Part shown: in pieces, positions 1-62,700 of the stretch
How positions within the stretch are numbered: the stretch's first letter is position 1
How the letters are laid out: each line of letters begins with the position of its first letter
Source of the DNA: Eledone cirrhosa
Lineage: Eukaryota
Direction: 5' to 3'
Length of the DNA: 64,000 nucleotides
Assembly (NCBI GenBank): GCA_964016885.1
Contig: OZ024742.1
Location: 83,948,001 to 84,012,000 of the forward strand
Position numbers and translations under genes: made by a program
The notes under the pieces: model-generated
Seen by the model: only the letters and a program-made list of their open reading frames with translations
The model's database searches: none
Told to the model about the DNA's origin: nothing

Positions 1-1500
1 ATTTTTGGTGGATGAGTAGGTTAATTTTATAGTATGTCTATTGAAAATTGAGTGATACCTATGTGTTCTAGGGAAGCGATTATCAAGAGCATTAAAAAAT
101 AGTTTAGCGATGTGGGTTTTAATGTTTAGTGAGAAAGGGGGGGCAAACCATATTATATTCCTAGTTCTATTTCTTTTTTGGCTTTTGGAATTATTGTAAT
201 GCTTTCTATTATAGTTGTTAAAGTTGTTGCCGTAATTAAAATTGTTGTTATTTTGGTTAGTTTGTCTATTATTATCTATGTACATAATTTTATCACTATA
301 TCCTGCTCTAGCTAACGCTTCATTGTAATACTGGGCTTTTTCGTCGAAAATCTTTTTATTAGATGAGATTCTAGAGATACGATTTTGAACAGAGTTTACT
401 TATAGTATTTTTAACAGATCTGGGGTGGTTAGAGTTAAAGCTGACATAGTTTAAGTTTTCATTCAACTTGTGAAATGGATAGTGAAGACATGTGTTGAGA
501 TTTAATGTTACATCTAGGAAATTGACTATTCTATGGTTATTCTCAATTTCTATTTTTAGATTAAAGTAATTAAAAAATTGTGTAATTTGTTTTCTTTTTC
601 TATTTAGTTCAGAGTTATTATTTTCAATAAGTAAAAGCATGTCATCTCTATATAAACCTCCGGTAGCACCGGGTATTTTCCTATGCAGCGAATTGATTAA
701 AAATAGGCCCACAAGGTCAGTTACCTGAGCTGAGTCGGATGATCCCATAGTAATGTCGAAATTGTTATCTCTATCTGCTCTGGTCCATAGTTGGTCATTA
801 AATTCTGTCAATGTTTTCCTAGCCGATAATATAATGTGCATTTCATTGCTAGTTAGGTCTGTATGTTTGAATGCGTAATTTAGTGCCTTATTTAGTAGAT
901 TAGGGGTAATAGATGAATAATAGTTAGCGATATCTAGTTGAATAAACTTATTATTATTGTTATATTTAATTTCTTTAAACCACTCAACAACCTCTCCAGT
1001 TCCCTTCCACAAGCTCAAGTTAGGTACACAATTCAAGTTTTTAATTTGCTGTATCACCCTGTCTAGAATGTTTTTGCTTAGTTTACCCAGGTCTGATTTT
1101 GATGGTGCAATCAATCTGACTGGCAGGTCATTTTCAAAATTACTTTTGTGATCTTTCATATTGATCTTCGGTTTCCTGGGCACGAAAGGTTGTGTTCTGT
1201 TCTCAATTTCCAACTCATGCATTATACAAGATGCCTCAACATTCATTTTCTCAAGCTCGGCCTTATCTGCTACCTTGTACTTTTTCCTCAGTTCTTTCAG
1301 TATTAGGCCATTATACATGTCTTTTTGCACTCCATAGAGGTTGTTGGTCTTGTCAGATTTCACCAAGATCTTCTCAGTTTTCTCTAAGCTCTCAATATTA
1401 TCCTTAATGCCTTTCAGATATTCCTGGCCTTTGAAGTTTCTCTTGAATTTGACTCCTTGTATGATAGAAATTATATCGTTTTCAAAGTCAAATAAATATA
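1..1500 (-). mobile_element. Penelope-like retroelement (PLE) reverse transcriptase, frameshifted; possibly Hydra clade; runs off the left edge
   Basis: ORF 371-1366 has RT motifs FIQLDIANYYSSI, MGSSDSAQVTDLVG, GLYRDDML and VNFLDVTLNL..NHP. The frame is open upstream to ~1500 (DFENDIISIIQGVKF..ILVKSDKT). After a frameshift it continues at 1-180 as RNIIWFAPPFSLNIKTHIAKLFF..FPRTHRYHSIFNRHTIKLTYS. The clade call is from recalled motif similarity only. Confidence 0.85.
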
Positions 1501-1504
1501 GACA

Positions 1505-1560
<56 letters not shown>

Positions 1561-1561
<1 letters not shown>

Positions 1562-2340
1562 GGAAAAATTAGAAATAAGAGGGATCAGATGTTGTTTACT
1601 CGAGAGAAGGCTACGTTGGCATGGTCATGTGATGTGCATGAAAGACGACAGCTGTATAAAAAAGTGCAGGGCGATAAAAATAGATGGTAGCCACGGTGTA
1701 GGCAGACCCAGAAAAACCTAGGACGACTTGATAAATTCCGACCTCACACACTTACACCTCTCTAAGACAATGTCACTGAATCGAGATCTTTGGCGCTACA
1801 CAGTTATAAAGAAGACCCGCCTTGCCTAAGTACAAAGCGAAACCTACAGTCAGTAGGCACCTATAACAAAATACACCCCCGTCCCACTACCCCCACCCCC
1901 ATCCACACCACCCCCTTAAATGTGAAGTTATGTTGGTACCACAACATCCAGTCCAAAACAAATGAGGTCGTATAGGTGTCACAACAAAAAAACACACAGT
2001 CCACGCTGTAATGTGGCCGTGTAGGTAACACAGTAAAAACCTCCCAGTACACACTGTAAACGTGGTTGGTGTTGGGAAGGGCACCCAGCCGTAGAAAATC
2101 TGCCATACGTGTAGGTGTCACGACAGTAAAACACAGTCCACGCTGTAATGTGGCCGTGTAGGTAACACAGTAAAAACCTCCCAGTCCACACTGTAAACGT
2201 GGTTGGTGTTAGGAAGGGCATCCAGCCGTAGAAAACCCGCCAGACAGTCCTGAGCAAGACAACCAATCTTGCCTTAAGTGGGACAATTCCCGTCCAGACC
2301 CATGCTAGCGTTGCAAATGGACGTTAAACGATGATGATGA
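1561..2340 (+). mobile_element. 5'-truncated RTE-type LINE 3' end, same family as 47348-51514
   Basis: Encodes EKLEIRGIRCCLLERRLRWHGHVMCMKDDSCIKKCRAIKIDGSHGVGRPRKT*, nearly identical to the C-terminus of ORF 47787-48734. Shares the 3'UTR and ends in gacgttaaacgatgatgatga. Has an internal ~140-bp duplication (~1970-2245). Confidence 0.9.
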
Positions 2341-7152
<4,812 letters not shown>

Positions 7153-7759
7153 TAGATAAATCTACCAAGAGTTTACGGTAGTGTCCAATCCGTATGAAGA
7201 ACTCAATGTATTCCGGATATCATGGAAAGAAGAGATGTAATGAAAATCCACTTTCGGTGAAAGATAAATGGTATACAGAGTCAAGATAAAATATTAAACA
7301 AATAATGAACAAACAATTCCTTATATTAAACAAAAAAAGTTCACTATTTAACGATCGTTTCTAGGGCATATATGTGTTATAATTGGTATGCATATTTAAC
7401 AGATCTATGTACAAAATTATACAAAATTATACAAATTATCAAGATTAAATATACATACCTAACTCATATATACGCCGTCTTCAGAAATAATGAAGTATAT
7501 TTATTGATAATAACAACAATTCAAAATGTCAGTTCAAAATTGACCAATAAAAACACAAAGGGTAAAAAACAGTTTGGTGTGTGTATATACATGCAAAAAC
7601 CTTACACATATTTTACAATAATGTGTGTATAATTTGTATGTGTATACTAAAAAGATGGATGTAAACACAAAATTTCAAGGTTAATATCTCTGTAAGCTTA
7701 ATGCGCTGATAAGATACGCAAAGATACTTATGGAGTCAAGCATATAAATATATTTTTTT

Positions 7760-19398: not shown

Positions 19399-21271
19399 GT
19401 ATGTATGTATGTATGTATGTATGTATGTATGTATGTATGTATGTATGTATGTATGTATGAGAGTGGGACTGGCTTTGTGCAGTGCCTTTGCTCACTATAA
19501 AAGCTTCACGGCACAGGCATTGCTTTATATCTGGAGATCTCTCTGCACTTGTCGTCACATGGTACCATGGGCCCAGCACTATGTGTCAGTAATTGTCACA
19601 AGCGTAGTGTTTGTACCAGAGTTTTCAAGTCGCTGGCTCGACTAAAAAGTCACACTCGTTCAGCGCATCGGTAGGGGTTCTCCTACATGGATATAAAGTA
19701 GTGGCCGTACTCGAAAACGAGTTGGCAGCCACCATATGTATATATATATATGTGTGTGTCCGGGAGAGATGACCCCTTAGCCTTTGTCAAGGCAGAATTC
19801 TAAGAGAAGGAAAACTCTGATATAACACCTGCAACCCTGATGGTATCCAATGATGTTGACTTATTCTTCTTTTTGGTAAATATCATCTTGGTTAAGAGAG
19901 TGGGACTGGCTTTGTGCAGTGCCTTTGCTCACTATAAAAGCTTCACGGCACAGGCATTGCTTTATATCTGGAGATCTCTCTACACTTGTCGTCACATGGT
20001 ACCAAGGGCCCAACACTATGTGTCAATAATTGTCACAGGTGTAGTGTTTGTACCAGAGTTTTCAAGTCGCTGGCTGGACTAAAAGTCACACTTGTTTAGC
20101 GCATCGGTGGGGGTTCTCCTACATGGATATAAAGTAGTGGCCGTACTCGAAAACGAGTTGGCAGCCACCATGTATGTATGTATGTATGTATGTATGTATA
20201 TGTTCTTATGATTTTATAATTTCACAAATTTTTTCCCAATAGAGAGAGAGTCGGTTTCTAACATAGATACAAGACTCTCTCATTGGAATTTACACAACAT
20301 CAACTAGGTAGATTATGTATGCATGCATACATGTGTAGATATGGATGTTATTGTATGTGCGGATGTGTATGTTTTGAGTTGTATGTATGCATGTGTATAT
20401 GCTTTGTATATGTACATGTGTATATGCAGTTATTAGATGCAAAATGTTTGGATTGTTTTACATATTTTTACTGTTCCATTAATGGATTGTACTTGCAATT
20501 TCCTAACTAGTTGTATGTATGTATGTATGTATGTATGTATGTATGTATGTATGTATGTATGTATGTATGTATGTATGTATGTATGTATGTATGTATGCAT
20601 GCATGCATGCATGCATGCATGTATGTATGTATGTATGTATGTATGTATGTATGTATGTATGTATGTATGCATGGATGGATATATATATATATCGTTTTTG
20701 AATTCGTCTTGCATGATTTTTATCTGAAAACGTGTGTTGAAACAAATATTGTTATACTTTGGGCAGGCCATGCTGCCAATAAAAACACACGCACCCGTTG
20801 GTTTTTACTTTAATTTAATACAAATTTCCGGTTGGATGGTTGGTTGGTTCAATAACCGAATGGTTCTTTATTTATTATTAAAGCTCTTTCGTCGCACATT
20901 CTGTGGCCTCATCAGTGACTGATTTGTTATTTTGTGTCTCTCCTTTGTTCTGTCCTACACCATTTATCTAATAAAAGCAAGCAACATATTTTGCAATTCT
21001 TTTACTGTGAAATAAACGATGGATAAATTACAAAGTAATATGATTATAAAATTGTAAAAGTATAAAAACTACACCATTATGAAAACAACAAATTGTGAAG
21101 ACAAATATTAAATATAGAGAACACTATTATGAATATTACGCGAAATATTCATGTCATGTAATATATTGAATACTATTGAATAAAAGACCTTCAAGTGTTA
21201 ATCGTTTTATCCGGCTAACGTGTAGAAAAACATATATTTTGATTATAATTTTCTAATTTGTAACATTATAG

Positions 21272-24516: not shown

Positions 24517-24714
24517 ATCCTTGCAGAAATATGCCAGACTATACCCAGCTGCCAATGGCTAATAATTGTGCTGGATACTGGTCCTGTCAGAATAGAATCG
24601 CAATAGAGAAGTGTTGTCCACGCGGTCATTCTTTTCAAGAAAGGAGAGGCTGTATCCGTAACCCACGTTGTCAAGATAGGTGCGGGCAGTCAATAACCAG
24701 CCCCACTCCACTAC
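24517..24714 (+). CDS. 8-Cys chitin-binding type-2-like domain exon 2
   Basis: 198 bp, ccaaag/gtatgt, phase 1/1. PCRNMPDYTQLPMANNCAGYWSCQNRIAIEKCCPRGHSFQERRGCIRNPRCQDRCGQSITSPTPL. Confidence 0.88.
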
Positions 24715-24841: not shown

Positions 24842-25019
24842 ATAAGAAAGTAAGTCCATAGAATCATTTGATAAAATATATACAGTATTTCTACTCCCAA
24901 TCAGCATAATTAACCACACAAAAAATCAATTAAACGAGGCTATAAGTTTAAAATGTACCTATGAAGAAACAATAGATAAATATATTTTATCAAATGATTC
25001 TATGGACCTACTTTCTTAT
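24842..25019. repeat. 40-bp inverted repeat pair, preceded by a ~64-bp AT-rich palindrome at 24777-24840
   Basis: ataagaaagtaagtccatagaatcatttgataaaatatat at 24842-24881 and its reverse complement (1 mismatch) at 24980-25019. Confidence 0.85.
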
Positions 25020-25422
25020 ATATTGATCTGATTGTTGATTATTTGATTAATTAATTCGACATTGAGCCACACCGTGAATGGTTGCCAAAAACACACACAT
25101 ATATATATCTATATCTATGGCTCTGTCTAGTTTATGTATATGTAAACCTATATATAAACGGAAAAAATGAAACGAAATTTCATTTCTCACTCTTAGTACG
25201 GCTGTTACTTAAATATAAGTATGTATACGTACATACATATATGTATACAGACGTACAGTAGTATATATATATATATATATACATGCACACATATATTTAT
25301 GTAAGTATGGATTGACCGAACATTTATTATAATGCTCGGTGTGTTTGTAAACAAACATCCCGAATGAAGCCGTACAGTGTCTAGCAACCATCGTTGCTCA
25401 TTTGTTAAACACTGACGAAGGA

Positions 25423-25465
25423 ACGCTGTACTAGTTTCAAGCTTATTAGCTATCGTCAGCAACGT
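25423..25465 (-). ncRNA. Minimal type-I hammerhead ribozyme
   Basis: ACGUUG-CUGACGA-U-AGCU-aaua-AGCU-U-GAAA-CUAG-UA-CAGCGU: intact core, 6-bp stem I, palindromic stem III (ACUAGU), GUA cleavage triplet. Confidence 0.8.
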
Positions 25466-25857
25466 ATACCTTCCTGCCAGATGGTTGAACGTCTGAAAGT
25501 ATATACTTTCCTTATGCATATTAACGGTTGAGCAGCCTAATTTGCATATCGAGTGAGTTAATGGGCCGGGGTACCGAAAACGATAAACGGAAAAACTGAA
25601 ACGAAATTTCATTTCTCACTCTTAGTACGGCTGTTACTTAAATATAAGTATGTATACGTACATACATATACGTATACAGACGTACAGTAGTATGTATATA
25701 TATATATATACATACATGCACATATATATATATATGTACGTATTGATTCAGCGAACATTTATTATAATGCTCGGTGTGTTTGTAAAGAAACATCCCGAAT
25801 TAGGCCATACAGTGTCTAGCAACCATCGTTGCTCATTTGTTCAACACTGACAAAGGA

Positions 25858-25900
25858 ACGCTGTACTAGTTTCAAGCTTATTAGCTATCGTCAGCAACGT
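25858..25900 (-). ncRNA. Minimal type-I hammerhead ribozyme (copy 2)
   Basis: Identical 43-nt motif. Confidence 0.8.
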
Positions 25901-26285
25901 ATACCTTCCTGCCAGATGGTTGAACGTCTGAAAGTATATATTTTCTTATGCATATTAATGGCTGAGCAGCCTAATTTGCATATCGAGTGAGTTAATCGGC
26001 CGGGGTACCGAAAACGATAAACGGAAAAAATGAAACGAAATTTCATTTCTCACTCTTCGTACAGCTGTTACTTAAATATAAGTATGTATACGTACATACA
26101 TATACGTATACAGACGTACAGTAGTATGTATATATATATATACATACATGCACACATATATATATGTACGTATGGATTGACCGAACATTTATTATAATGC
26201 TCGGTGTGTTTGTAAACAAACATCCCGAATTAAGCCGTAGTGTCCAGCAACCATCGTTGCTCCTTTGTTCAACACTGACAAAGGA

Positions 26286-26328
26286 ACGCTGTACTAGTTT
26301 CAAGCTTATTAGCTATCGTCAGCAACGT
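26286..26328 (-). ncRNA. Minimal type-I hammerhead ribozyme (copy 3)
   Basis: Identical 43-nt motif. Confidence 0.8.
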
Positions 26329-26470
26329 ATACCTTCCTGCCAGATGGTTGAACGTCTGAAAGTATATACTTTCCTTATGCATATTAATTCGGGATGTTTG
26401 TTTACAAACACACCGAGCATTATAATAAATGTTCGGTGAATCCATTCGTACATATATATATGTGTGCATG

Positions 26471-26554
<84 letters not shown>

Positions 26555-26782
26555 CTACTGTACGTCTGTATACGTATATGTATGTATGTATGTATACATA
26601 TTTATATTTAAGTAACAGCCGTACTAAGAGTGAGAAATGAAATTTCGTTTCATTTTTCCGTTTATCGTTTTCGGTACCCCGGCCGATTAACTCACTCGAT
26701 ACGTAAATTAAGCTGCTCAGCCATTAATATGCATAAGGAAAGTATATACTTTCAGACGTTCAACCATCTGGCAGAAAGGTAT

Positions 26783-26825
26783 ACGTTGCTGACGATAGCT
26801 AATAAGCTTGAAACTAGTACAGCGT
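26783..26825 (+). ncRNA. Minimal type-I hammerhead ribozyme (copy 4, sense to host gene)
   Basis: acgttg ctgacga tagctaataagctt gaaa ctagta cagcgt, read directly on the + strand. Confidence 0.8.
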
Positions 26826-28537
26826 TCCTTTGTCAGTATTGAACAAATGAGCAACGATGGTTGCTAGACACTGTACGGCTTAATTCGGGATGTTTGTTTA
26901 CAAACACACCGAGCATTATAATAAATGTTCGGTGAATCCATACGTACATATATATATGTGTGCATGTATGTATATATATACATACTACTGTACGTCTGTA
27001 TACGTATATGTATGTACGTATACATACTTATATTTAACCTATATATATATATATATATATATCGCCACCAATGAATGCGAGAAAGTTCTCTAATAAAGTT
27101 AACCAGGAATCTTTAAAATTCTTTCCACCGAAGTTAACAAAGAACTTACTAGATCTACCAACTCAAATTATTATGATATTATAAAATTAAATCAAATTAT
27201 TTAGAACTACAAGTGAAGTCATTCTTTTCCTTTTTTTCAAATATACCTAACTGTACCAAGGATCTCACTTTTTCCAATACATATATATATTCACGTACAT
27301 ATATAGTCTATTATATATGGTAATGTCGCACATTGTGATATAGTGAGTTGAAAAATATCGATGATATGAAATTAACTATATAATTACGAAACAAACTCTC
27401 TCTGGGTTTGTTTAAAATGTAAATACAAGAACAAATTGTTGAAACTTTTGAATTTCTAGATAATACAATTTAGAAATGAATAAGATTTTCAAGCCAATTG
27501 GCAAAAATAAAGATGTTTTTGCCGAACTAAAATTCTTCAACGAAGCATATTCTACATAATTGTCAAGATGAAGAGCAATCAATATATAGCAGGAATGTGT
27601 ATTGACAATATTCAAAGAGAAAATACCTTAAAAATGTGTGCTGCATACTATATAAAAAATACGATAAGATACAGTACAGTAGTGCTTCGTTTTACACAGG
27701 GACGTACTAATTGAAGAAGCATTCACTAGAGAAGCTGAAAGATATTCTAAATAATATGTGAATAGAAAATCTGCGAAAACTTTGGGATGTCTAATATTAG
27801 GATGTCTATTTTATTATTTTCTTTTTTTTGTATGTGCAATATTTGACCTGGTAGTAATGTCATATACTAAATTGGAAAAAGAAGCAGTAATGACATTCTG
27901 GGACGTTATTCAGTATTGCAAGACTGAGTTTGTAAATATTGAGACGTTGATAGATTATTTATGACTTAACTTGGGAATGATGGAGTCTAAAATAATCCAA
28001 TGAGAACATGAGAAGGAAATTCTATTGATTTACAGGAAAACTCATCATTGGTGAAACGGTGGGGGATCAATTAATTAGGTTTAGAATATTCATGTCTGTA
28101 TGCGGAACTAACGTGCATGTAACTGAGCATTTCGCAGAAACGGTCACCCTTAACGTTGTTAAGGGATCCAGCATGAGACAATATGTTAGAAGGCTTACTG
28201 AGTGGATTAAAGCAGCGCAAAATACAGTGTCTTACTCAAAGACACAACGTGCCGCCTGGGCCCGGAATGGAATTCACGAACTTACAACTGTGAACCGAGT
28301 ACCCTTACCACGACGCATCTTCACTCACACACACAGACAAACGCACACACACACAAACACACGCATATATATACATAGAATGACAAGCATTAAACTATTA
28401 TTCACTGTGAACTGTTTAACGCATAACTAGATTTAACGACAATAACATATATTGCAGATTGCTAAAAAACACGCCTGTATATTAATTGTAGCAATATTGT
28501 GACTGTATACACACACACACGCACACGCACACGCACG

Positions 28538-29394: not shown

Positions 29395-29555
<161 letters not shown>

Positions 29556-29562
29556 GTCTATA

Positions 29563-30960
29563 GACGAGAGAGCCCAAATTTTCCACTCACACTATGCTAA
29601 ACCCATGGCCTCCAAATACCTGATACTCAAAAACTCACCAATGTCCAGTCGTGCTAAGTTTAATATTCTGATCGCAGTGATGAAGAACGTGTCCCGCATG
29701 TGCGACCCAACAGAAATGGAAAGACACATCCAACACTTCATCAACCGCATCCAGTTCTCTGGCTACAACCAAAGAGACAGAGTCACAGTATACGAAGGAG
29801 CCACGGAGAAGTATAAGAACCTCATAGAACTGGACATGAAAAGAATTTGCCCATTATACAGGAGCAAATCATGGAATAGCTTAGATAGGGCTAGACATAA
29901 GATAGGGAAAGCCACCTCATGGTACGACAACCAGAGATACCAGAGTGTCATGTTTGTGGACGCTACACCTGGAGGGAAATTAGCTAACCAGTGTAGAAAG
30001 ACCCTGAGAAAGACCCACTTAAAGATTAAGGTGGTAGAAAAGCCAGGAACCACCATCAAATCCCTGATCAGCAAAACCTACCCTTTTAAGAATACCCACT
30101 GTACTAATAGGAAATGTATCATATGTAAGGTAAACCCCCGGATAAACTGTAAAACTAGAAACGTAGTCTGTAGCATAAGATGTACAGAGGGTACTTGCAG
30201 AAACATGACAACAACATACATAGGCGAGACAGCTCGTAGCATAGGTGAAAGGATAGACCAACACTGGGGGGGAACTAAAAGGACGAAAAAACTGTTCAGT
30301 ACTATACGAACATGCCAGACAACAACACGACGGTAACATAGACAACATAGAAATTAGAATAATATCTAAACATAGAAATAACCCAGCAGATAGGCAAATC
30401 AGAGAGGCCAGTGAAATAGAACTTAGAAGGCCAAGACTAAAGAGAAAGAATGAATGAATAACAACAACACCCAAACAAAAAACACTGACCTAAGAGAAGT
30501 ATAAATAAATATATAAATAAATATATAAATACATACACAAGCACAATAACAACAAACACATATAAACACACACTAGTAAACATAGAATACATTAACCAAT
30601 ACACAGTCACCCAATCACGAACACATATCAAACAAAACACTATACACACACGCAAACGCAAAGAAGACAAAATATAATAAACAAATAAATAAATATATAA
30701 ACAGACTAAATAAAGATGGCGTAGAAAATACAATGCAACGGGAGGAAACAATAGCACCACTGCACTGACGTTGTTGCAGATGTGCAACGAAAGTACTTTG
30801 ATAGACTATACATATGTGTTTGTGTCTATATTGTATATGTATTATTTTTGACCGTAGGTCAGTCAATGGCAACATTGAGGACCGAATAAATTAGATTACC
30901 GATATAAAAGACACAGAAGCGAAAACCAACCAAACAATGAGTGTGTTCTGTTATTAATTC
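29563..30960 (+). mobile_element. 5'-truncated Penelope-like element: RT thumb, GIY-YIG endonuclease and 3' region
   Basis: HYAKPMASKYLI, SVMFVDATPGGKLA and CTNRKCIIC..CKTRNVVCSIRC..TYIGETARSIGERIDQH. Degenerate hammerhead-like motif at 30761-30803 (ctgacg.tgttgca gatg tgcaac gaaagtact). Confidence 0.85.
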
Positions 30961-31050
30961 TGGCAATATTACACAAATATGACCCTCCCCAAGTATAACT
31001 ATATCTATATATATATCTATATATATAAATTCATATATATATACACGAGA

Positions 31051-31992: not shown

Positions 31993-32190
31993 ATCGTTGC
32001 AGAAATATGCCAGATCATACTGAGCTCCCAATGGATGATAATTGTGCTGGTTACTGGACATGTTATAATGGAGTCGCAACTAAGGGCTGTTGTCGTCGTG
32101 GTCAATCTTTTAGAAAAAGGAGAGGTTGTATCCGAGATCGAAGTTGTCGAGATAGGTGTCGAGAGCCAGTCACACCACCCAGTCCAGAAA
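31993..32190 (+). CDS. Chitin-binding-like domain exon 3 (array unit 1)
   Basis: 198 bp, ctaaag/gtaggt, phase 1/1. RCRNMPDHTELPMDDNCAGYWTCYNGVATKGCCRRGQSFRKRRGCIRDRSCRDRCREPVTPPSPE. Confidence 0.85.
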
Positions 32191-47410: not shown

Positions 47411-50400
47411 TTTCGTTTAACGTCCATCTTCCACGCTAGCATGGGTTAGACGGAAGTTGTCCCAAGTTGAGGCAAGGTTGGTCGGGTGACCGTGTCTCTC
47501 TCATATGGGACTATCTGGCAGGTTTTCTACGGCTGGCTGCCTTTCCTAGCACCAACCACATTTACAGTGTGGAACTGGGAACTTTTTACCGTGTTACCTA
47601 CACGACCACATTACAGCGTGGACAGTGTTTTTTTTGTGGTGACACCTACACGATCTGGATCTCATTATCTCATTTATTTGGAATGGATGTTGTGGTACCA
47701 ACTTTACAGAGAGAGGGTGGTGTTGGTGGGAGTGGGAGCATAGGGTAGGACTAGTGGATTGGGGTGTATATTTGGTTAAGCGGTGCCTACTGACTGTAGG
47801 TTTCACTTTGTACATAGGCAAGGTAGTTCTTCTGTATTACTACGTAGTGCCAAAGATCTCGGTCCAGTGAAATTGTCTTAGAGAGGTGCAAGTGTGTAAG
47901 GTCGGAATTTATCAGATCGTCCCAGGTTTTTCTGGGTCTACCTACTCCGTAACTACCATCAATTTTGATCGCCCTGCACTTATTTATACAGCTGTCGTCT
48001 TTCATGCGCATCACGTGGCCATACCAACGTAGTCTTCTCTGAAGTAAACAGCATCTGACCCCTCTAATTCCTAATTTCTCACTTAGTTCATTTATGCTTT
48101 GCCGTTCACGTATATTACTATTACACATCCAACGGAGCATGCATGCTTCATTCCTTTCCAGTCTGCGCAGTTCCTCTGCACGTAATGCCCATGTCTCACT
48201 GCCATGTAGCATTAATGTTCGTATACAGGCATCATACAATCTGCGTTTCATTTTTAGAGAGAAACCTTTTGTGGCCAACAGCGGTATACGCTCTCTGAAC
48301 TTTTTCCATCCCATTCTGACTCTGGCTATTGTACTTTCAGAACACCCTCCACCACTGCTGATTTCGTCACCCAGGTAACGGAAAGTGTCCACTATTTCTA
48401 TAGAACCATCTGGGCAATAGAAGGAGTTAGTATCCTGTGGACGCTTGCTACTTATTGCACCTGAGCATCGGCCACATATTAAGTCTACGTTCTTAGATAG
48501 TTTACCTGTGATTCCACTACATCTTTTATGTACCCATACTTTGCATTTGGCACATAAAATGGAATTTCTGCCTACTCCTTTCCTACACACTGAGCATGAC
48601 CATTTCCCTGAGGGAACCTGTGCCCTATTTTCCTTTCTACAAACTAGAACTTTAGTCTTAGACAAGTTAACTTTAAGGCCTTTTGATTCTAGGCCATGCT
48701 TCCATGTTTGGAATTTCTTCTCGAGTTCAGCCATTGATTCAGCGTTAGATCATCTGCATATAGGAGTTCCCATGGGCAGCCGGTCTTGAACTCCTCTATT
48801 ATAGCCTGAAGGGCAATAATAAATAGGAGGGGGCTAAGGACAGAGCCTTGATGACCACCAACTTTTAACGCTAAATTCTTCACAATATTCATTGTTAATT
48901 CTAACCTTACTGACTGTTTCTTTATACATAGCTTGTATAGCTCTCACAAACCATTCATCTACACCTAGTTTTCTAAGAGCCCACCAGATAATGGAGCAGA
49001 AGACTCTGTCAAAGGCTTTCTCCAGGTCTACAAAAGCTAAGTAGAGGGGTTTACTGTAGTTGTCGTACAAGGAAAAGAGCGTCTGTGGTACTTTTACCTG
49101 ACACAAACCCAAACTGCATTTCATCTAGATCAATTCGCTCTCTGATTAGTTGCGCTATAACTCTTTCTGTGACCTTCATGACCTGGTCAACTAACTTAAT
49201 GCCTCTATAGTTTCCCCTATCTAAAGCATCCCCTTTATCCTTGTAGCAATTAATGATGATGCTGCGACGCCAGTCTTTTGGTATGACTCCATTCTGTATT
49301 ATTTGGTTAACTATACGGGTGACCATAGTATGTCCCACCATTCCAGATGCCTTCAACATCTCAGCAACTATCTCCGAAAGCCCAGCTGCCTTGCCTGCCT
49401 TTATATCTTTGATTGCATTACTTATTATACTACCTTTAACTTGCACCGCTGGTCCTTCTATTGGATCGATTTGAGGCAGACTATCTTTATCCCATTTATT
49501 CTGCTCATTTAATAGTCTCTCGTAGTGACACTTCCAGACTATCTTCTTATCAGTATCAGTGAGGGCAAGTACACCGTTATCATTACGGACACACTTCTCC
49601 CCGACAATATCACGGTTTTCCTTGACACATTGTCTAGCAATCCTGAATACCTCACGTTTTTGGTCCTCACGTTGTAGAACATGCTTGAACTTTCTATCCT
49701 CTGCTTCCCTTTTTGCAAGGTACACTTGTCTCCTAGCTTCTCTCCTGGACACTTGATAGTGCTCTCTACTTACCCCATCCTGCCATACTTTCCAAGCCTG
49801 CTTTTTGGCCTTGATTGTCTCCTCCACCTTACTGCTCCACCACCAAGTTACTCTCCCCCTGTCAATAGGTCTGCTCCAGCCACAGATTTCCTCCGTTGCT
49901 TTCAGCAGGTTCACTTTCAAGAATTGCAGCTATTCCTCTATATTGCACGTCTCTAATTGCTCTTCCTTATTGTCAAATAATCTTTTAAATTTGTCACTGG
50001 CTATGGGGTTCTTCAACTTCCGTATTCTTCTCCTCAAGGTAGGCCTCCTCTGTCGTCGTGTACGTCTATTCCTGACTGTGAGGTCACTAACTACTAGGCT
50101 ATGTTGGGAGGTGCATTCTTCACGGGGGAGGGATTTAGTGTTTACAACAGACACTTTGTCCCGTCTTCTAGTAAGGATGTAATCTATCTGGCTGGCGTGT
50201 TCCCCTGATCTATAGGTGATCAAGTGGTTTTCTCGCTTTTTGAACTTAGTGTTATAGATAGTTAGGTTATAAGCGTCACAGAATTCCAGGATTCTGAAGC
50301 CCTCCTCATTTCTATTTCCAACCCCATAGCCTCCATGGATTCCATCATAGCCATCACTATGTTGTCCAACGTGACCGTTTAGATCGCCAGCAATAATAAA

Positions 50401-51514
50401 GTAGTCGCTGTCGGTTATTTGGGAGGTAGTGTGCATTAGCATCTCATAGAACCTGTCCTTTATAACGTCAGGTAAATCAGATTGGGGTGCATAAGCGGAT
50501 ATTATTGTCACTGTAGTTCTATTTAGTACTAGTCTTATTTTAATTGTCATTCACTCTATTTACGTCAATTACCTTATCTACCCATTTTCAGCTAACATAA
50601 TTCCTACACCACCCTGTCCGTTGTCATTTCCCACCCAGAAAAGTTTATAGCATCGTTATTTACCCAGGATGAATCTGGCAGACCCCCCTCTCCACCTAGT
50701 CACTTGAATACAACAAACATCAACTTCTTTACGTTCAAGCATCTCTACAACCTCATTTGAGCGACCTTTCAATGTGCCTACGTTCATGGTACCAACTCTG
50801 AAGTTGGGAGGGTGGGATGGATGGGTTGGAGGGGCAGGGAGGGGTGTGGGAGACGGAATTATGTTCGTCATCCGTGTCTGAAATAAAGAGGGGTCCTTGT
50901 ATTCTCGTCCTGCAGCGGGAGGTGAATTTAGCTTTATCTGTGACATTGTCATTGACTGCTTAGACTTTCCAAATTCCGTAGTCAACCCATCAAACAGATC
51001 TAAACTTAAGGAGTAGTAACTGAGGTGGTAGCTTTGCAATATGATTTGTTAGAGAACTTACTATAAGCCTTTGAGAGTTATGATTGGACCATATAGCAAT
51101 GGTGGTATATTGTGGTAGGAGGGAAATGGGTAACTTTAGGAGAAGATTAGTTTTTAGGAAGGGTCCAACAGAATGAGACATATTATTAAAAACATGTAAA
51201 ATATTAATTGAAAATCCGGGAGAAAAAGGGAAAATTTGAATTTTAGACTGGCATAAATAGGAGTTTAAAACTCTGCTTATTGAGTCGACTACATGTAAAA
51301 GGAAAGACAAGTATTTTGCTTACATTGTCAAAATCGACAGATCGTCCGTAATATAGATTAGATAGATAAATTATGTCCTTGGGAACCAGCAAGATTTATT
51401 TTATACTAGCGGTCAGACGGGGGGTGGATATGAGAGAAGGAGCAAAGTGTTCACAAAGTTAGCGAGCGAGATGCAGGAAAGTTCTAGAATAATTAATTAA
51501 TAATAATACTATAT
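47348..51514 (-). mobile_element. Full-length, frameshifted RTE-clade LINE (APE endonuclease + RT)
   Basis: EN motifs VGTMNVGTLKGR..DVCCIQ, ISAYAPQ, AGDLNGHVG, SQIDYIL, SQHSLV. RT motifs NYRGIKL, QFGF..TTDALF, AFVDLEKAFDRV, HQGSVLSP, LLYADD. (ATG)n tail at 47348-47410. Flanking gctgat duplication at 47342-47347 and 51515-51520. The empty site is visible at ~52904. Confidence 0.95.
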
Positions 51515-54789: not shown

Positions 54790-57700
54790 ATATTAGAAAA
54801 CGAGTTTTTTTTTTTTTTTTTTTTTTTTCAAAAATGAAAAAAACCGAGATGTCCTACACGAGTGAAAGCATAAGAAAAAAGATGAAATCGAAAATGCAAC
54901 TGGAGTCTTTTTAAGAATATTTATTTGGTTCCTTTACCGGTTTCGCAGTTCTTATTCTTTTCAAAAGTAGAGTTGAAATGGAGGGTTTGTGGTTTTTCTC
55001 GCATCTGGTTGGTGTTCGAATGTTACTTCTGTTTTATGTGGAATAAGTCACTCGAAATTCTAGTTTTTTTTAGAAAATTAATTATTTGGTTGGTTGATTA
55101 GTCACGTGAACAAGTATAATATATTTCGCGCCAGTTCGCGTTACAAAAATTCTTATTATATTTGCCTTTAAAAAAAGGGGGGGGGGAGAGCCTCAGATTG
55201 TTTTTTAATATATGAGTGAAATTTGGTTGGTTGATGCAGTAACGTGCACAAGCACATCAACTTTCGTACCAGTTGGTTGATGCAGTTACGTGCACAAGCA
55301 CATCAACTTCCGTGCCAGTTGGTTGATGCAGTAACGTGCACAAGCACATTAACTTTCGTACCAGTTGGTTGATGCAGTCACGTGCACAAGCACATCAACT
55401 TTCGTACCAGCTGGTTGATGCAGTAACGTGCACAAGCACATCAACTTTCGTGCCAGTTGGTTGATGCAGTAACGTGCACAAGCACATCAACTTTCGTGCC
55501 AGTTGGTTGATGCAGTAACGTGCACAAGCACATCAACTTTCGTACCAGTTGGTTGATGCAGTAACGTGCACAAGCACATCAACTTTCGTACCAGTTGGTT
55601 GATGCAGTAACGTGCACAAGCACATCAACTTTCGTACCAGTTGGTTGATGCAGTCACGTGCACAAGCACATCAACTTTCGTACCAGTTGGTTGATGCAGT
55701 CACGTGCACAAGCACATCAACTTCCGTGCCAGTTGGTTGATGCAGTAACGTGCACAGGCACATCAACTTTCGTACCAGTTGGTTGATGCAGTAACGTGCA
55801 CAAGCACATCAACTTTCGTACCAGTTGGTTGATGCAGTAACGTGCACAAGCACATCAACTTTCGTACCAGTTGGTTGATGCAGTAACGTGCACAAGCACA
55901 TCAACTTTCGTGCCAGTTGGTTGATGCAGTAACGTGCACAGGCACATCAACTTTCGTGCCAGTTGGTTGATGCAGTAACATGCACAAGCACATCAACTTT
56001 CGTACCAGTTGGTTGATGCAGTCACGTGCACAAGCACATCAACTTCCGTGCCAGTTGGTTGATGCAGTAACGTGCACAAGCACATCAACTTTCGTACCAG
56101 TTGGTTGATGCAGTCACGTGCACAGGCACATCAACTTTCGTGCCAGTTGGTTGATGCAGTAACGTGCACAAGCACATCAACTTTCGTGCCAGTTGGTTGA
56201 TGCAGTAACGTGCACAAGCACATCAACTTTCGTACCAGTTGGTTGATGCAGTAACGTGCACAAGCACATCAACTTTCGTGCCAGTTGGTTGATGCAGTAA
56301 CGTGCACAAGCACATCAACTTTCGTACCAGTTGGTTGATGCAGTAACGTGCACAAGCACATCAACTTTCGTGCCAGTTGGTTGATGCAGTCACGTGCACA
56401 AGCACATCAACTTTCGTACCAGTTGGTTGATGCAGTAACGTGCACAAGCACATCAACTTTCGTGCCTGTTGGTTGATGCAGTAACGTGCACAAGCACATC
56501 AACTTTCGTACCAGTTGGTTGATGCAGTAACGTGCACAAGCACATCAACTTTCGTACCAGTTGGTTGATGCAGTAACGTGCACAAGCACATCAACTTTCG
56601 TACCAGTTGGTTGATGCAGTCACGTGCACAAGCACATCAACTTTCGTGCCAGTTGGTTGATGCAGTAACGTGCACAAGCACATCAACATTCGTGCCAGTT
56701 GGTTGATGCAGTAACGTGCACAAGCACATCAACTTTCGTACCAGTTGGTTGATGCAGTAACGTGCACAAGCACATCAACTTTCGTACCAGTTGGTTGATG
56801 CAGTAACGTGCACAAGCACATCAACTTTCGTACCAGTTGGTTGATGCAGTAACGTGCACAAGCACATCAACTTTCGTACCAGTTGGTTGATGCAGTCACG
56901 TGCACAAGCACATCAACTTTCGTGCCAGTTGGTTGATGCAGTAACGTGCACAGGCACATCAACTTTCGTACCAGTTGGTTGATGCAGTAACGTGCACAAG
57001 CACATCAACATTCGTAGCAGTTGGTTGATGCAGTCACGTGCACAAGCACATCAACTTTCGTACCAGTTGGTTGATGCAGTAACGTGCACAAGCACATCAA
57101 CTTTCGTACCAGTTGGTTGATGCAGTCACGTGCACAAGCACATCAACTTTCGTGCCAGTTGGTTGATGCAGTCACGTGCACAATCACATCAACTTTCGTA
57201 CCAGTTGGTTGATGCAGTCACGTGTACAAGCACATCAACTTTCGTACCAGTTGGTTGATGCAGTCACGTGCACAAGCACATCAACTTTCGTACCAGTTGG
57301 TTGATGCAGTCACGTGCACAAGCACATCAACTTTCGTGCCAGTTGGTTGATGCAGTAACGTGCACAAGCACATCAACTTTCGTGCCAGTTGGTTGATGCA
57401 GTAACGTGCACAAGCACATCATCTTTCGTACCAGTTGGTTGATGCAGTCACGTGCACAGGCACATCAACTTTCGTACCAGTTGGTTGATGCAGTCACGTG
57501 CACAAGCACATCAACTTCCGTGCCAGTTCGTGCTTGAGTTTCTTTCCACTTAAAAAAGTGGCTCAAAAAAGTTTTATAAATGTAATTTGATTGGTTATCA
57601 CTGTCACATGAATAAATACATTAAATTTCGCGCCCGTATCTGGGAATTGTTTTATAGCCATTTAAAGAATTTTGTGCCAAACAAAAGATAATGGTCAAGA

Positions 57701-59650
57701 AAAAAGGATTGGGGAGAATTGTTCTGGTTCAGTGAGTATGGCTGATGTGCTGAGGTGTCAAAATTCAGACTTTCTATTGAAATAAAGAAAGTAGAGATAT
57801 GTATTTTTATTTGTGTGCTGGTGTGTGTGTCTGTGTGTGTGTGTGTGTGTGTGTAGGAAAATGATTCTATTAGTAGAAATGGGGGAGGGATTTATGTGTG
57901 TGTGTGTGTATGGGTGTTATATATGTGTGTGTATGTGTGTGTGTAAGTATGATTAGCATGTTGAGATGGAGAGAATATATATTTGTGTGTGTGTAGGAAA
58001 ATGATTCCGTTAGTAGAAAGGGGGGAGGGTGCTATGTATGTGTGTGTGGGGGGAGGGGGGTATGGTTAGTATGTTAAGGTGTTAGAGTATTAACGTATGT
58101 TAAGGTTTATTTAGCTCTGGTTTTTATTTTCGAATATAGAAGATGTTATGTGTGTGTGTGTATGTATGTGTCTGTTTGGATGATTAGCATGTTATGGTGT
58201 TAACATAATGTATATTAAACTATATTTAATGCTGATTTATATTTTTGAATAATCATATTTTCCTTATTTATTCGTATTTGTTCTGTTGTATTGTCAGCGC
58301 AAATATAAAATGGGAAGACTTGGAATTTGGGTGTCTTATCGCTTGCGCATAAGTCTACATGTGTACTGAGTGGTATATGTCTTGTGGTAGGGTCTCGTAA
58401 TTGTTGGCGATGAACTGTCATTCTGTTTCTGAGTGTGAGTTTGGTTTATCCTATATAATCTTCATTGCATCCTTTACATTTAATGGCATAAAGCAAATTT
58501 GTTGATGAGCAAGTGAAGTGATTTTTTACAACACAATTTTGTCCTGATTGAAATGTATACATGGTGCCTTCAATGAGGTGAGTGCAGGTCCCACAATTAG
58601 AGCGACCACATTTTTTGTTTTGACAGTTGGTTGTGGGTTTGTGGTAGGTAATTTGGCATTGGTGAGTAATGTTTTTAGTGATTTCGGTTGTCTTCTGCTT
58701 TTGATTATTTTGTGTGTTTCAAGGGCTTTTTTCACTCTTGGATCTTGTTTCAATAGTGGGATGTTCTTGTGAATAATGTTGTATGCTTCCGCATTTCTTG
58801 GGTTGTGTGTTAGAATATTGGACGTACCTTGAATTTGTTTCTATTTTCGTAATTCATCAATGCCTATTGCTTTAGCCCTTTCTATTCCATTATTTATTAG
58901 TAATGGTGGGTACTGTCTTTCGAGCAGAATTTCCTTTAATTCTTGAAGTCTTTTATTTCGCGTTTCATAATTGGAGTCAATTGTGCATATTCTTCTTGCT
59001 AGGTTAAAAGGGATGTTTCTCTTCGTGTGCTTTGGATGGATGGAGATGAATAGCAGGTATTGTTTGGAATCTGTTGGTTTGTCATGTATGTCAGTTTCAA
59101 TATTTGTGAATTTTTTAAGATTAGGATGTCCAGAAATGGGAGTTGATCTTGGCTGTATTCCATTGTGAATTTTGGATGTGGTTATTGATGCCGTTAATTA
59201 AATGTTTTAAATCATTTAGTTGGTCGAGTGTGTGAGACCAAAGAATGAGGCAATTATCCAAATTTACAATTCTCTGATAAATATTTGTGGAAGTTCAATC
59301 CGTATTTTGATTTGGACTGTTCATATATCTGGACTTCTAGGTATGCCATGACTAAGTTAGCATAAGTTGGAGCGACTTTTGTACCCATCGCAGACCCCGA
59401 TATTTACTTGTAAGTATTGCTATTGAAATAAAAAAAATTGTTCTGTAAAATAAACTGTAATCCATCGGCGATGAAGCTTTTTTCTATTCTGTCAGGTATC
59501 TCATTGGGATATTTCTCTAGCCAGAATCCTATTGCTTTTAGTCCGTATTGGTGTGGGATCGTTGTGTAGAGATTCACTACATCGAAAGACACAATAATAG
59601 TGTCGTTGTTGACATGTTTGGGGAGGTGGTTTAAGAGGTCCAGATCATCT
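54790..59650 (-). mobile_element. Degenerate Penelope-like element (RT + C-terminal GIY-YIG) with long 3' region
   Basis: IVSFDVVNLYTTIPH..FILQNNFFYF, GSAMGTKVAPTYANL, TDIHDKPTDSKQYL..HPKHTKRNIPFNLARRIC and NLLYAIKCKGCNEDYIG*T..RMTVHRQQL. Decayed hammerhead end gaaaccggtaaagg at ~54931. The left boundary is approximate. Confidence 0.85.
55226..57525. repeat. Minisatellite, 50 x 46 bp: GTTGGTTGATGCAGT[A/C]ACGTGCACAAGCACATCAACTTTCGT[A/G]CCA
   Basis: Exact 46-bp period (55226, 55272 ... 57480) with no spacers. Confidence 0.97.
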
Positions 59651-59773: not shown

Positions 59774-62700
59774 TCTATATATATAAAACAGAAGATGTCT
59801 GTCTGTTTGTGTAACCGCATGGATTTCTACATTTTACAACTGATTTGCACCAGATTTCATACATAGGTTTCTGAAGTCCTATTACGCGTCGTAGGCTATT
59901 TTATTATTCCGTACATCGATTGTGGGGACCCCAGGGACAGGTAGCCCCCTTAAGCTTCTCCCTTCGACTTATCTATTGAAGTTCACTTTAACACTGTATT
60001 AGTACCTGATAACTTTTGAAGTTTACGTTCGATCTTCGTTTTCACTTTCAAAACAATAATCATCGTCGGATGAAATTTCAGAAATGTAAACATCTGATTC
60101 ATTTGAAGATAAATCACTAATATTATCTTTTGTTTCTTGTTCATTTGGAATGTCGTCGTGTGTAAAAACTTGAAAGTCGGTATCGCTACTTTCATAAGCC
60201 ATGTTGATACAAACAAAAAATCTGTTCTACTTTCGACGTTAAAAAAACACGTGTTGTTTTAAGTTGTTTCACTATATTAAGTGTTAATTGTCGCGGTAAG
60301 GGCCTAATCTCGCAGTAATCTCGAATTGACGAGATTTTGATGACGGTATTGTTTATTTTTAGAACGTTTGGGTGTTACGGCGGTTTTGGGCGGTTTGAAC
60401 AAATGAAGGGGAAATAATTTCGGCCGGTTTGAACACTAAAGGGTTAAAGGAGGTTTAGTTAATGTGTTTATTGTCATAAGGTTCCAGTTTATCATGCTGT
60501 GATTTTTCAGCCATTTTTGCCTGTATCCTTTCAATGGTTAGTACTTACTTTGCGTTGCCCCTAACTTAAAACCTTAAATTTGACTATTACACAAAATCTT
60601 GCAAAACATACCCACTTTCTCAGACCACATAGATTTATCACATTTCTTCACAATTTATATCCGTGTATTTTTGCTTACTTAAACGTTATTTGTCCACTAT
60701 TTATCGTTCTCCCTGGTTAATTTTCTAAAAACAATGCTCCCCAAGAAAAGAACTCTCATGGTCGATTATCTACTAATGCAAGTAGGTCTAAGCGAAGGCG
60801 TCTCACCGAAGATGTAAATGCAACTGCGATCAGGCTCTCACAGAATGCTGTGCAGACGTCAGCTGCAAGAGCGAAGGATGACAGCCGGCGTGAACTTCGA
60901 CGGAACAAAAGTGCTGCCGCGACTGCTGCTGCTCGCGCACGAGAGGATGAAGGACGACGTGCCGTTCGACGTAGCAGGGACGCCGCTGCAACATTCGCTG
61001 CTCGCGCACGAGAGGATGAGGACGACGCGCCGTTCGACGAAGCAGGGACGCCACTGCCACTGCTGCTGCACGAAATACTGAAACCATAGAGCAACGACGT
61101 GGCCGACTTCTGAAAAGTGAACAGCGGCGATCATCGTTACATGGCATTTCTAGGACTTGCAATTCACGATGGTTGTTGAAGGCCTTTAACTACGACTCCT
61201 CCTCCGACTACGCCGTCCATGCAGATATTTAAATTGGGGAAATGACCTCTACTTGCCAGTTTTGTCGTACGAAAAAGTGGCCAGGGGAGAGAGATGGAAC
61301 GTGCTGTTTAAACGGTAAAGTTAGACTACCTCCTATTCACGACCCTCCAGAGAAATTGCAACTCTTTTTGACAGACACGACGGAGGAATCATCGAAGTTT
61401 CTGCGTAATATCCACCGCTACAATTCCGCGTTTCAGATGACATCCTTCGGAGCAAACTTGCCTCGGAACGTGGGTTCATGCCAACTTTCAAGGTCCAGAG
61501 GCAGATCTACCACTTGATTGGTTCTATTCAGCCTCTGGCAGAAAAGGATCCTCAATTTCTTCAGTTATACTTCGTTGGAAACTATCAGGAGCAGGCAGAG
61601 ATGCGAAACTCTATTTCGTCCGAAACTAACATTGGAACCATAATAAAACTTCAAGAAATGCTTCACGACAAAAACAGCTATATTCGCAGTTTCAAGTACG
61701 CTTTGGAAACAGCCACCGACCAAAACTTTAGTGTGGTCATACATGCTGAGCGAAGGCCATCTGGAGAACATGCTGGTCGGTTCAACGCACCAACATGTAA
61801 TGAGATTGCTGCGGTTATTTGTGGTGAACAGCACAACAAGAGATATATCATTCTAAAGCACCGAGACAGCACATTACAGCGTATCAATGAGACACACAGG
61901 TCCTACGATGCACTCCAGTATCCATTGCTATTTGCAACGGCGAGGACGGATACCATTTCGGCATTCCTCAACATTCGGCAGGCAATGGTGAGGCACCTCT
62001 TAGGAAAACTGTCACCTGTATGGATTTCTACGCTTTCCGATTTATGGTAAGGGACAATTCATTCAACCATCTACACCGTTCTCAGGACCTTTTCCAACAA
62101 TTTGCTGTTGATATGGCCGTTAAAATGGAGTCCGAGAGATTATGGTTCATTAAATTAAATCAAAAGAAACTTCGATCTGAATGCTACATTCATCTACGCG
62201 ATGGAATTAACAACGACGTATCCCCAGACAATTTAGGGCATGTGTGTATTTTGCCTTCAACGTTCACAGTAGGACCCCGATACATGCACGAGATTACTCG
62301 GGACGCCATGACCTACGCACGACATTATGGGCGCCCCAACCTTTTCATAACGTTTATATGCAATCCCAAGTGGAAGGAGATTACAAACGAACTGCTCCAC
62401 GGTAAAGCGCCAAGACACAGGCACGATCTCATAGCAAGAGTGTTTCGCCTGAAATTATCCAAATTAATGGATTTATTAAAGAAAGGACAAGTTTTTGGGC
62501 CTGTCAGGTGCACGGTTGAATGACAGAAACGAGGGTTTCCGCATGCCCATATCTTGATTTGGTTGGTTACAAAAATCAGTTCAAACTACATCGACAAATT
62601 CATTTCTGCCAAACTACCTAATCTGTCGATTGACATGGACCTCTGCTCTATAGTCACATCAAACATGGTCCATGATCCTTGCGGACATGGACTCAATATG

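What the first reader, a model, noticed from the sequence alone, without database searches (positions are those of the whole stretch)
25155..27037. Tandem ~430-bp repeat with four identical, apparently intact hammerhead ribozymes: candidate retrozyme/circular-RNA element inside a host intron
Seen: each full repeat unit contains ACGTTG CTGACGA T AGCT AATA AGCT T GAAA CTAG TA CAGCGT (three copies on -, one on +). The motif is unchanged between copies although the units differ elsewhere. Established: minimal type-I hammerheads with a palindromic stem III occur in Penelope pLTRs and in metazoan non-LTR retrozymes, and cleave as dimers; multimeric transcripts are processed to monomers that can circularise. 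Inference: a minus-strand transcript would self-process into ~430-nt non-coding monomers mobilised by a PLE RT, and three PLEs lie in this window. The tandem-plus-inverted layout is PLE-like. The unit also contains an octamer ATTTGCAT. The stem II closing pair is U-U rather than the usual G-C, which may lower activity.
Basis: partly seen in the sequence, partly recalled or inferred. Interest (0 to 1): 0.75.

Follow-up and report, generated by a model that had tools for sequence, protein, structure and literature searches.

The report
Penelope-mobilised hammerhead retrozyme insertion
This is one aged copy of a very abundant, protein-free jumping repeat whose units carry a hammerhead RNA motif predicted to cut itself, and its two-armed insertion shape suggests that a Penelope-type retrotransposon enzyme likely pasted it in, possibly from a circular RNA; such elements are a known kind.

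Summary
Observation confirmed: four identical type I hammerhead motifs in 428-435-nt units (three minus, one plus), between chitin-binding exons. The locus is one copy of a dispersed family (27,299 motif matches, control 0). It is a single two-armed insertion with a 12-bp target duplication and a TTAA inner junction. In 87 loci the arms end at two fixed sites about 60 nt apart, joined to (TA)n, and 22 of 23 divergent pairs have one long and one short end: the Penelope 'tail' hallmark. Coding Neptune-like elements here show the same ~60-nt spacing; Hydra-like ones ~85 and ~180. No coding element shares the unit's sequence. Ends do not gather at the ribozyme cut site, so the template was a re-ligated circle or an uncut multimer. 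Corrections: the motif has canonical rather than minimal geometry; identity of the four copies is weak evidence of selection (p=0.06; 12 of 60 family copies have core mutations). Cleavage, expression and circles are untested. Verdict: new member of a known kind (non-LTR retrozyme, non-autonomous Penelope-like element). This scan already reported the same kind of element on other DNA.

The parts
25145..25156 (+). Left copy of the 12-bp target-site duplication; its last bases overlap the long end of the left arm
25154..26388 (-). Left arm, 2.9 units, RNA sense on minus; 3' end at unit position 281 (long end with tail), 5' end at unit position 340
25154..25212 (-). 59-nt 'tail', present at this end of the insertion only
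25423..25465 (-). Type I hammerhead motif 1; predicted cut 3' of 25429 (GUA)
25858..25900 (-). Type I hammerhead motif 2; predicted cut 3' of 25864
26286..26328 (-). Type I hammerhead motif 3; predicted cut 3' of 26292
26385..26388 (.). Inner inversion junction between the two arms, 4-nt microhomology
26385..27037 (+). Right arm, about 1.4 units, RNA sense on plus; 5' end at unit position 62, 3' end at position 226 (short end)
26783..26825 (+). Type I hammerhead motif 4; predicted cut after 26819; the only copy in host-gene sense
27036..27047 (+). Right copy of the 12-bp target-site duplication, running into (TA)n
25540..25547 (+). Octamer-like motif (again at 25974; changed in the right arm); function untested
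24517..24714 (+). Host exon upstream: 198 nt, AG/GT bounded, chitin-binding CBM_14 (25.8 bits, cut-off 22.1)
31993..32190 (+). Next like CBM_14 exon downstream (22.3 bits); an unverified exon-like stretch lies at about 28036-28297

Best explanation
This is one aged, two-armed insertion of a high-copy, protein-free repeat whose ~430-nt unit carries a type I hammerhead motif predicted to self-cleave, and it was likely pasted in by the reverse transcriptase and endonuclease of a Penelope-like element (a non-LTR retrozyme). SHOWN: dispersed family, (TA)n targets, two fixed 3' ends ~60 nt apart, one long plus one short end per two-armed insertion, 12-bp duplication, 4-nt inner microhomology, no shared coding flank, no heaping of ends at the cut site. 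INFERRED mechanism: a multimeric transcript is cut by the hammerheads (likely as dimers through the palindromic helix III) and the monomer is likely ligated to a circle. The endonuclease makes staggered nicks in (TA)n. Each of the two 3' overhangs primes cDNA at one of two UAU-ending sites 222 and 281 nt downstream of the cut site. Reverse transcription runs through the ribozyme junction for one to several rounds, and the two cDNAs join by microhomology. The likeliest enzyme donor is a Neptune-type element, from the matching tail length. Odds: non-autonomous PLE-mobilised element about 0.85; ribozyme active in source lineages about 0.7; circular template about 0.5; Neptune-type partner about 0.5. 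This copy itself is probably inert.
For: 27,299 motif matches, control 0. 215 anchor events in 87 loci: 102 read through, 60 short, 45 long, 8 other; 97 of the 105 short or long ends run into TA-rich sequence; 22 of 23 divergent pairs are long+short, binomial p=1.9e-6. The window shows the same layout with a 12-bp duplication. PMC8557442 names partial tandems, an inverted 5'-truncated copy, a tail at one end and (TA)n bias as PLE features (passages). Neptune-like 3' ends in the same loci: 14 short, 12 long (TA run at +52 to +62), 1 other, of 27. Hydra-like families have tails of about 85 and 180 nt, read by eye. 46 free 5' flanks share no common continuation. 173 of 176 post-cut blocks keep their upstream half; genome-wide, 73 junction-like hits at the cut site against 48 at a control site. 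One helix I pair changes on both sides between subfamilies (G-U 6, A-U 4, U-G 2 of 13). Locus-private variants are shared between units in 9 of 49 loci (same arm) and 5 of 39 (opposite arms), against 0.2% sharing between loci.
Against: No cleavage, expression or circle data. The U-U closure replaces the G10.1-C11.1 pair that PMC4209133 calls highly conserved; 13 of 14 variants have no standard pair there. Covariation overall is weak (score 0.054, 19 of 500 shuffles as high; other measures not above shuffles). Copies decay nearly neutrally: motif 1.8% against 2.6% elsewhere (p=0.015), core 1.95%, 12 of 60 copies with a core change. Only 1 of 9 Xenopus dimers cleaved in bioRxiv 10.64898/2026.07.22.740005. 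The window's own units share no private variant, and 40 of 49 multi-unit loci show none within an arm. L039 carries a variant in some units only, and the A/B alternation in L045 fits a later two-unit duplication better than a dimer circle. No coding partner with shared sequence was found. Tail-length matching is my inference, not a published rule. A few 'short' calls and pairings are false anchors or may join separate insertions.
Confidence: 0.7

Rival explanations
1. Same non-autonomous PLE-type element, but copied from uncut linear multimeric transcripts (or by template jumping). The hammerhead is weak or dispensable and circles play no part in mobility.
For: Read-through of the cut site is equally expected from uncut RNA. 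U-U closure and near-neutral decay. Most multi-unit loci share no private variants. Naiads spread without canonical hammerheads (PMC8557442).
Against: The core and helices are kept across subfamilies 10-17% apart, with one two-sided helix I change. All units of some young arrays share private variants, in both arms (L037, L039), which needs a monomer bottleneck.
Confidence: 0.3
2. The units are pLTR fragments of a coding Penelope-like element that I did not find, and the short copies are its 5'-truncated products.
For: All structural hallmarks are those of PLEs. At L015, L018, L028 and L044 the unit is joined directly to Hydra-like sequence.
Against: Units run head to tail without an ORF for up to about 7 units in one arm. 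46 free 5' flanks have no common continuation. The Hydra-like junctions fall at different unit positions and involve different families; the 19 other copies fetched of the L028 family carry their own 3' UTR. A relaxed helix II pattern gave 10 hits, none near a PLE ORF.
Confidence: 0.1
3. A locally grown satellite, or a SINE-like repeat moved by a LINE with twin priming; the hammerhead is incidental.
For: LINE remnants are common here. L045 shows later local duplication. Divergent arms with microhomology also arise by LINE twin priming (recalled).
Against: Two fixed 3' ends with one tail per insertion and (TA)n targets match coding PLEs of this genome. PMC8557442 states that the tail is not seen in non-LTR TPRT. 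There is no poly(A) end. Copies are dispersed on many chromosomes.
Confidence: 0.05
4. The insertion has been co-opted to regulate the chitin-binding host gene, by intronic cleavage or by a long hairpin.
For: Four motifs unchanged (p=0.06). The arms would form a long duplex in the pre-mRNA.
Against: Only one motif is in host sense, and it is predicted fully paired to the antisense copy at 25422-25464. Divergence is typical of the family.
Confidence: 0.03

Closest known systems
Metazoan non-LTR retrozymes (coral, mussel, axolotl; PMC7229834; vertebrate survey bioRxiv 10.64898/2026.07.22.740005)
   Same: Non-coding 150-450-nt tandem units, one type I hammerhead each, low GC (36%), thousands of copies, TSD longer than 4 bp, compact predicted circle (z -2.9 without the microsatellite), PLE proposed as mobiliser.
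   Different: U-U instead of G-C closing helix II; internal (TA)/(TG) microsatellite; mostly 1-3 units per arm in a two-armed layout with fixed ends, which the parts of those papers I read do not describe; no homology to a coding pLTR found, unlike 24 of 57 Xenopus families matched to Repbase elements; cleavage and circles untested.
EN+ Penelope-like elements, Neptune and Hydra clades (PMC8557442, PMC4209133)
   Same: Partial tandems, inverted 5'-truncated arm, tail at one end, (TA)n targets, hammerhead about 200 nt upstream of the short end (about 130-215 nt in Neptune-like copies here; 222 nt in the unit).
   Different: No ORF. The hammerhead is unlike the min-HHR of the local Neptune-like elements (long helix II, G-C closure). 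The tail is about 60 nt rather than the 30-40 bp given in the paper.
Non-autonomous Chlamys elements such as MRC1 (PMC8557442, passage)
   Same: Non-autonomous PLE derivatives with multicopy head-to-tail insertions.
   Different: Those generally resemble their autonomous partner at the 3' end, and most Chlamys lack canonical hammerheads; here there is a hammerhead and no shared 3' sequence was found.

Membership tests
Type I hammerhead ribozyme | Core CUGANGA / GAAA / UH with three helices | tested here: met
   core intact, 91% of cells paired; helix I and II pair probabilities 0.45-1.0 for two of three motifs, helix I 0.11-0.23 for the 5'-most
Type I hammerhead ribozyme | G10.1-C11.1 pair closing helix II | tested here: not met
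   U-U in the window; 13 of 14 variants without a standard pair
Type I hammerhead ribozyme | Rfam gathering score | tested here: not met
   Hammerhead_HH9 20.8 bits against 52; Hammerhead_1 not hit
Type I hammerhead ribozyme | Covariation supporting the helices | tested here: inconclusive
   one helix I pair changes on both sides; 19 of 500 shuffles reach the score
Type I hammerhead ribozyme | Self-cleavage | not testable with these tools
   needs in vitro transcription
PLE min-HHR (PMC4209133) | 7-8 bp helix II, extra base before G10.1-C11.1, helix III absent or minimal | tested here: not met
   helix II is 4 bp and a 2-bp palindromic helix III is present; the local Neptune-like element has the min-HHR form
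Non-LTR retrozyme | Non-coding tandem units of 150-450 bp, each with a type I HHR, GC below 50% | tested here: met
Non-LTR retrozyme | High copy number, dispersed, TSD longer than 4 bp | tested here: met
Non-LTR retrozyme | Expressed as linear and circular monomers | not testable with these tools
   no run on record as RNA was listed; only contigs could be laid
Non-autonomous Penelope-like element | Tandem plus inverted arms, tail at one end, microsatellite target | tested here: met
   22 of 23 pairs long+short; 97 of 105 ends into TA-rich sequence
Non-autonomous Penelope-like element | Sequence shared with an autonomous partner | tested here: inconclusive
   none in the window or in 147 loci, but only a few PLE families were sampled
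pLTR of a coding PLE | RT-GIY-YIG ORF at a constant position upstream of the repeat | tested here: not met
   46 free 5' flanks without a common continuation; 2 with Hydra-like EN, at different junctions

The most novel reading that the evidence does not exclude
A circular retrozyme RNA with an atypical U-U-closed hammerhead is copied round and round by a Neptune-type PLE enzyme from two fixed internal start sites about 60 nt apart, one for each strand of a staggered (TA)n nick. The tail length then fingerprints which PLE clade serves which retrozyme, even without shared sequence, and the PLE 'tail' is explained as the offset between two priming sites on one template.
Probability: 0.3. Interest if true: 0.65.

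Novelty: new member of a known kind. Interest (0 to 1): 0.4.

Why it matters
The link between animal retrozymes and Penelope-like enzymes rests, in the papers read, on co-occurrence, shared hammerheads and pLTR homology, and the origin of the PLE tail and inverted arm is stated to be open (PMC8557442). This family records thousands of insertion events of a 430-nt template. It gives exact predictions (two priming sites, about 12-nt staggered nick, read-through of the ribozyme junction) and a minimal substrate for a first in vitro PLE assay. The individual copy is ordinary, and this scan has already noted the same kind of element several times.

Tried and rejected
Rfam over 6 kb gave only microsatellite-driven miRNA-type noise. 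The isolated 61-nt motif folds no better than shuffles (z -0.89). My constrained-fold energy was misregistered and the 2-nt loop is not scorable by ViennaRNA; neither value is used. RNA search: no RNA holder listed. Contigs of 4 of the 6 listed runs, all of unknown kind, cover the non-microsatellite part of the unit, including runs of two other coded organisms, but say nothing on expression; the CBM_14 exon was not covered. Partner search: the window's PLE remnants share no DNA with the unit; two Hydra-like families (30 and 20 loci) have unrelated 3' UTRs; a 13-nt match to helix II in L028 was absent from the six other copies printed; a relaxed helix II pattern gave 10 hits without PLE ORFs. 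Pfam did not recognise the PLE fragments; clade labels rest on tblastn and on linker motifs described in PMC8557442. A dimer-circle reading of L045 was rejected, since the outer unit lacks two variants. A fold-back origin of the inverted arm was rejected for L039, since the arms are not mirror copies. The regex end classifier was unreliable and was replaced. A paper that I recall on dimer-cleaving PLE hammerhead variants is not held and is not used. Look-up of earlier findings by sequence was blank.

Full report
OBSERVATION. The window holds four identical 43-nt motifs at 25423-25465, 25858-25900, 26286-26328 (minus) and 26783-26825 (plus). They lie in a 2.9-copy array of period 435 and an inverted arm. 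The motif has an intact hammerhead core, helix I of 6 bp, helix II of 4 bp under a U-U opposition, and a 2-bp palindromic helix III before GUA. Rfam's best match is Hammerhead_HH9 (20.8 bits, E 0.005 on 201 nt, gathering 52). By the definitions in PMC4209133 (parts 1-2 of 4 read) this is canonical type I geometry, not the min-HHR, but it lacks G10.1-C11.1. The flanking 198-nt AG/GT-bounded exons at 24517-24714 and 31993-32190 match CBM_14, so the intron position is a sound inference without RNA support. The genome is 3.0 Gb; that it is an octopus is my inference, echoed by unchecked notes.

FAMILY. A DNA search gave 3103 candidates, 40 scored at 96-100% over many chromosomes. A 30-letter motif pattern gave 14,032 + 13,267 matches, control 0; this counts motifs, not insertions, and includes subfamilies with periods of about 420-540 nt. 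I examined 87 loci: the 30 best DNA matches (one is the window) and 57 regions around the first 100 listed pattern hits on C1. All were thus selected for holding a motif.

INSERTION ANATOMY. Counting from the predicted cut site, the window's left arm ends at unit position 281 and its right arm at 226. Both overlap a 12-bp duplication (25145-25156, 27036-27047), and the arms meet at a 4-nt microhomology. Across the 87 loci, 215 anchor events split into 102 read-through, 60 short ends (about 222-226), 45 long ends (about 281) and 8 others; 97 of the 105 short or long ends run into TA-rich sequence. Of 23 divergent pairs, 22 have one long and one short end (p=1.9e-6). A few short calls are false anchors and some pairings may join separate insertions. 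Contigs of run X1 also show the long end running into (TA)n. PMC8557442 (passages and section 11) lists partial tandems, an inverted 5'-truncated copy, a 30-40-bp tail at one end and (TA)n bias as PLE features, says that the tail is not seen in non-LTR TPRT, and calls the mechanism unresolved.

PARTNER. PLE remnants lie at 371-1624, about 29550-31000 and 58224-59197; none shares DNA with the unit. 46 free 5' flanks have no common continuation, and two Hydra-like families and a relaxed motif search gave no homologous pLTR. Four direct junctions to Hydra-like sequence (L015, L018, L028, L044) differ in position and family; they may be template switches or nested insertions with deletion. Neptune-like elements (CX4CxxC linker, min-HHR) also end at two sites: of 27 ends, 14 short, 12 long with the TA run at +52 to +62, 1 other. 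That spacing matches the unit's 59-61 nt, whereas two Hydra-like families show about 85 and 180 nt, read by eye. I take this as a modest pointer to a Neptune-type enzyme. Against it, U-U-closed helix II also appears in one Hydra-like 3' UTR, so the motif itself may be of Hydra origin.

TEMPLATE. Neither 3' end is at the ribozyme site. 173 of 176 post-cut blocks keep their upstream half and 172 of 174 pre-cut blocks their downstream half (biased by selection). Genome-wide there are 73 junction-like hits at the cut site against 48 at a control site, not normalised, many of which look like small internal deletions. So cut linear monomers were not the main template; a re-ligated circle or an uncut multimer was. 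Locus-private variants are shared between units in 9 of 49 loci within an arm and 5 of 39 across arms, against 0.2% between loci. This favours a monomer bottleneck in some young arrays, but most loci, the window included, show none, and L045 is better read as a later duplication. A circular template was already proposed for PLEs (PMC4209133) and for retrozymes (PMC7229834, discussion).

IS THE RIBOZYME ALIVE? In the 30 best loci (one older arm of L027 dropped) the motif changes at 47 of 2615 sites (1.8%) against 426 of 16,405 (2.6%) elsewhere, p=0.015; the core changes at 13 of 666; 27 of 60 full copies are identical and 48 of 60 keep the core. The window's 0 of 172 against 21 of 1053 gives p=0.06. 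Within-locus divergence equals between-locus divergence (5.0% against 4.8%). Inserted copies thus decay almost neutrally. Constraint shows only between subfamilies: helices are kept and one helix I pair varies as G-U, A-U, U-G, with weak overall covariation on 14 hand-picked variants. In the minus-strand multimer two of three motifs are predicted to form helices I and II; in host sense the single motif is predicted to be buried in the arm duplex. In bioRxiv 10.64898/2026.07.22.740005 (parts 1-3 of 5 read) only 1 of 9 Xenopus dimers cleaved.

KNOWN AND NEW. It works like, and by the testable sequence features belongs to, the non-LTR retrozymes of PMC7229834 (passages, results part 1 of 3 and discussion read), which include a mussel family. 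It fails the G-C closure and the Rfam cut-off, and cleavage and circles are untested. PMC6155905 was seen as passages only. Searches for 'octopus' + 'hammerhead ribozyme', 'cephalopod' + 'Penelope' + 'ribozyme' and PLE tail or mechanism terms listed no description of this family; I saw listings only, the library lacks most subscription papers and Repbase, and supplements were not read. After my analysis, earlier unchecked notes of this scan proved to describe the same kind of element and the two-end layout on other DNA.

VERDICT. Real, well supported as a non-autonomous PLE-mobilised retrozyme; new member of a known kind; interest 0.4. The value lies in the family's insertion record, not in this copy.

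Noticed in passing
window 22050-53800 (+): Gene with at least ten CBM_14-like exons; 31.9-53.8 kb is a young tandem array of about 2.5-kb units at 96-99% identity, suggesting recent expansion of a chitin-binding protein.
   Followed up: partly
window 29550-31000 (+): 5'-truncated Neptune-like PLE with its own min-HHR at about 30765 and a short end into (TA)n.
   Followed up: partly
window 20700-20990 (-): Decayed 3' end and hammerhead of a second Neptune-like family, related by eye to L045, L048, L049.
   Followed up: partly
window 371-1624 (-) and 58224-59197 (-): Two further PLE remnants: a Hydra- or Naiad-like RT fragment and a fragment weakly like a Poseidon-type endonuclease.
   Followed up: partly
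window 24842-25085: Another high-copy small repeat with an inverted end, between TA runs, just left of the insertion.
   Followed up: no
L037 6303-8307: A second, unrelated 310-bp tandem hammerhead family with U-U-closed helix II and a two-armed layout, adjacent to an array of this family.
   Followed up: no
L036 3800-3870; L018 2445-2520; L037 200-290: Hydra-like family whose 3' UTR holds a hammerhead-like motif with an altered core (A for U at position 4), long helix III and U-U closure; tail about 85 nt.
   Followed up: partly
L044 5060-5650 and 6385-7610: Unit joined at position 258 to an inverted Hydra-like endonuclease fragment, present twice; possible mixed-template insertion.
   Followed up: partly
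L039 3221-3248: The inner junction falls on the unit's own hairpin (positions 66-93), giving a 28-nt overlap between the arms.
   Followed up: partly
window 55226-57528; 61400-63800; 47787-51048; 2340-7158: 46-bp satellite of 50 copies; Helitron remnant (PF14214); LINE remnant; 4.8-kb (TA)-type tract.
   Followed up: no
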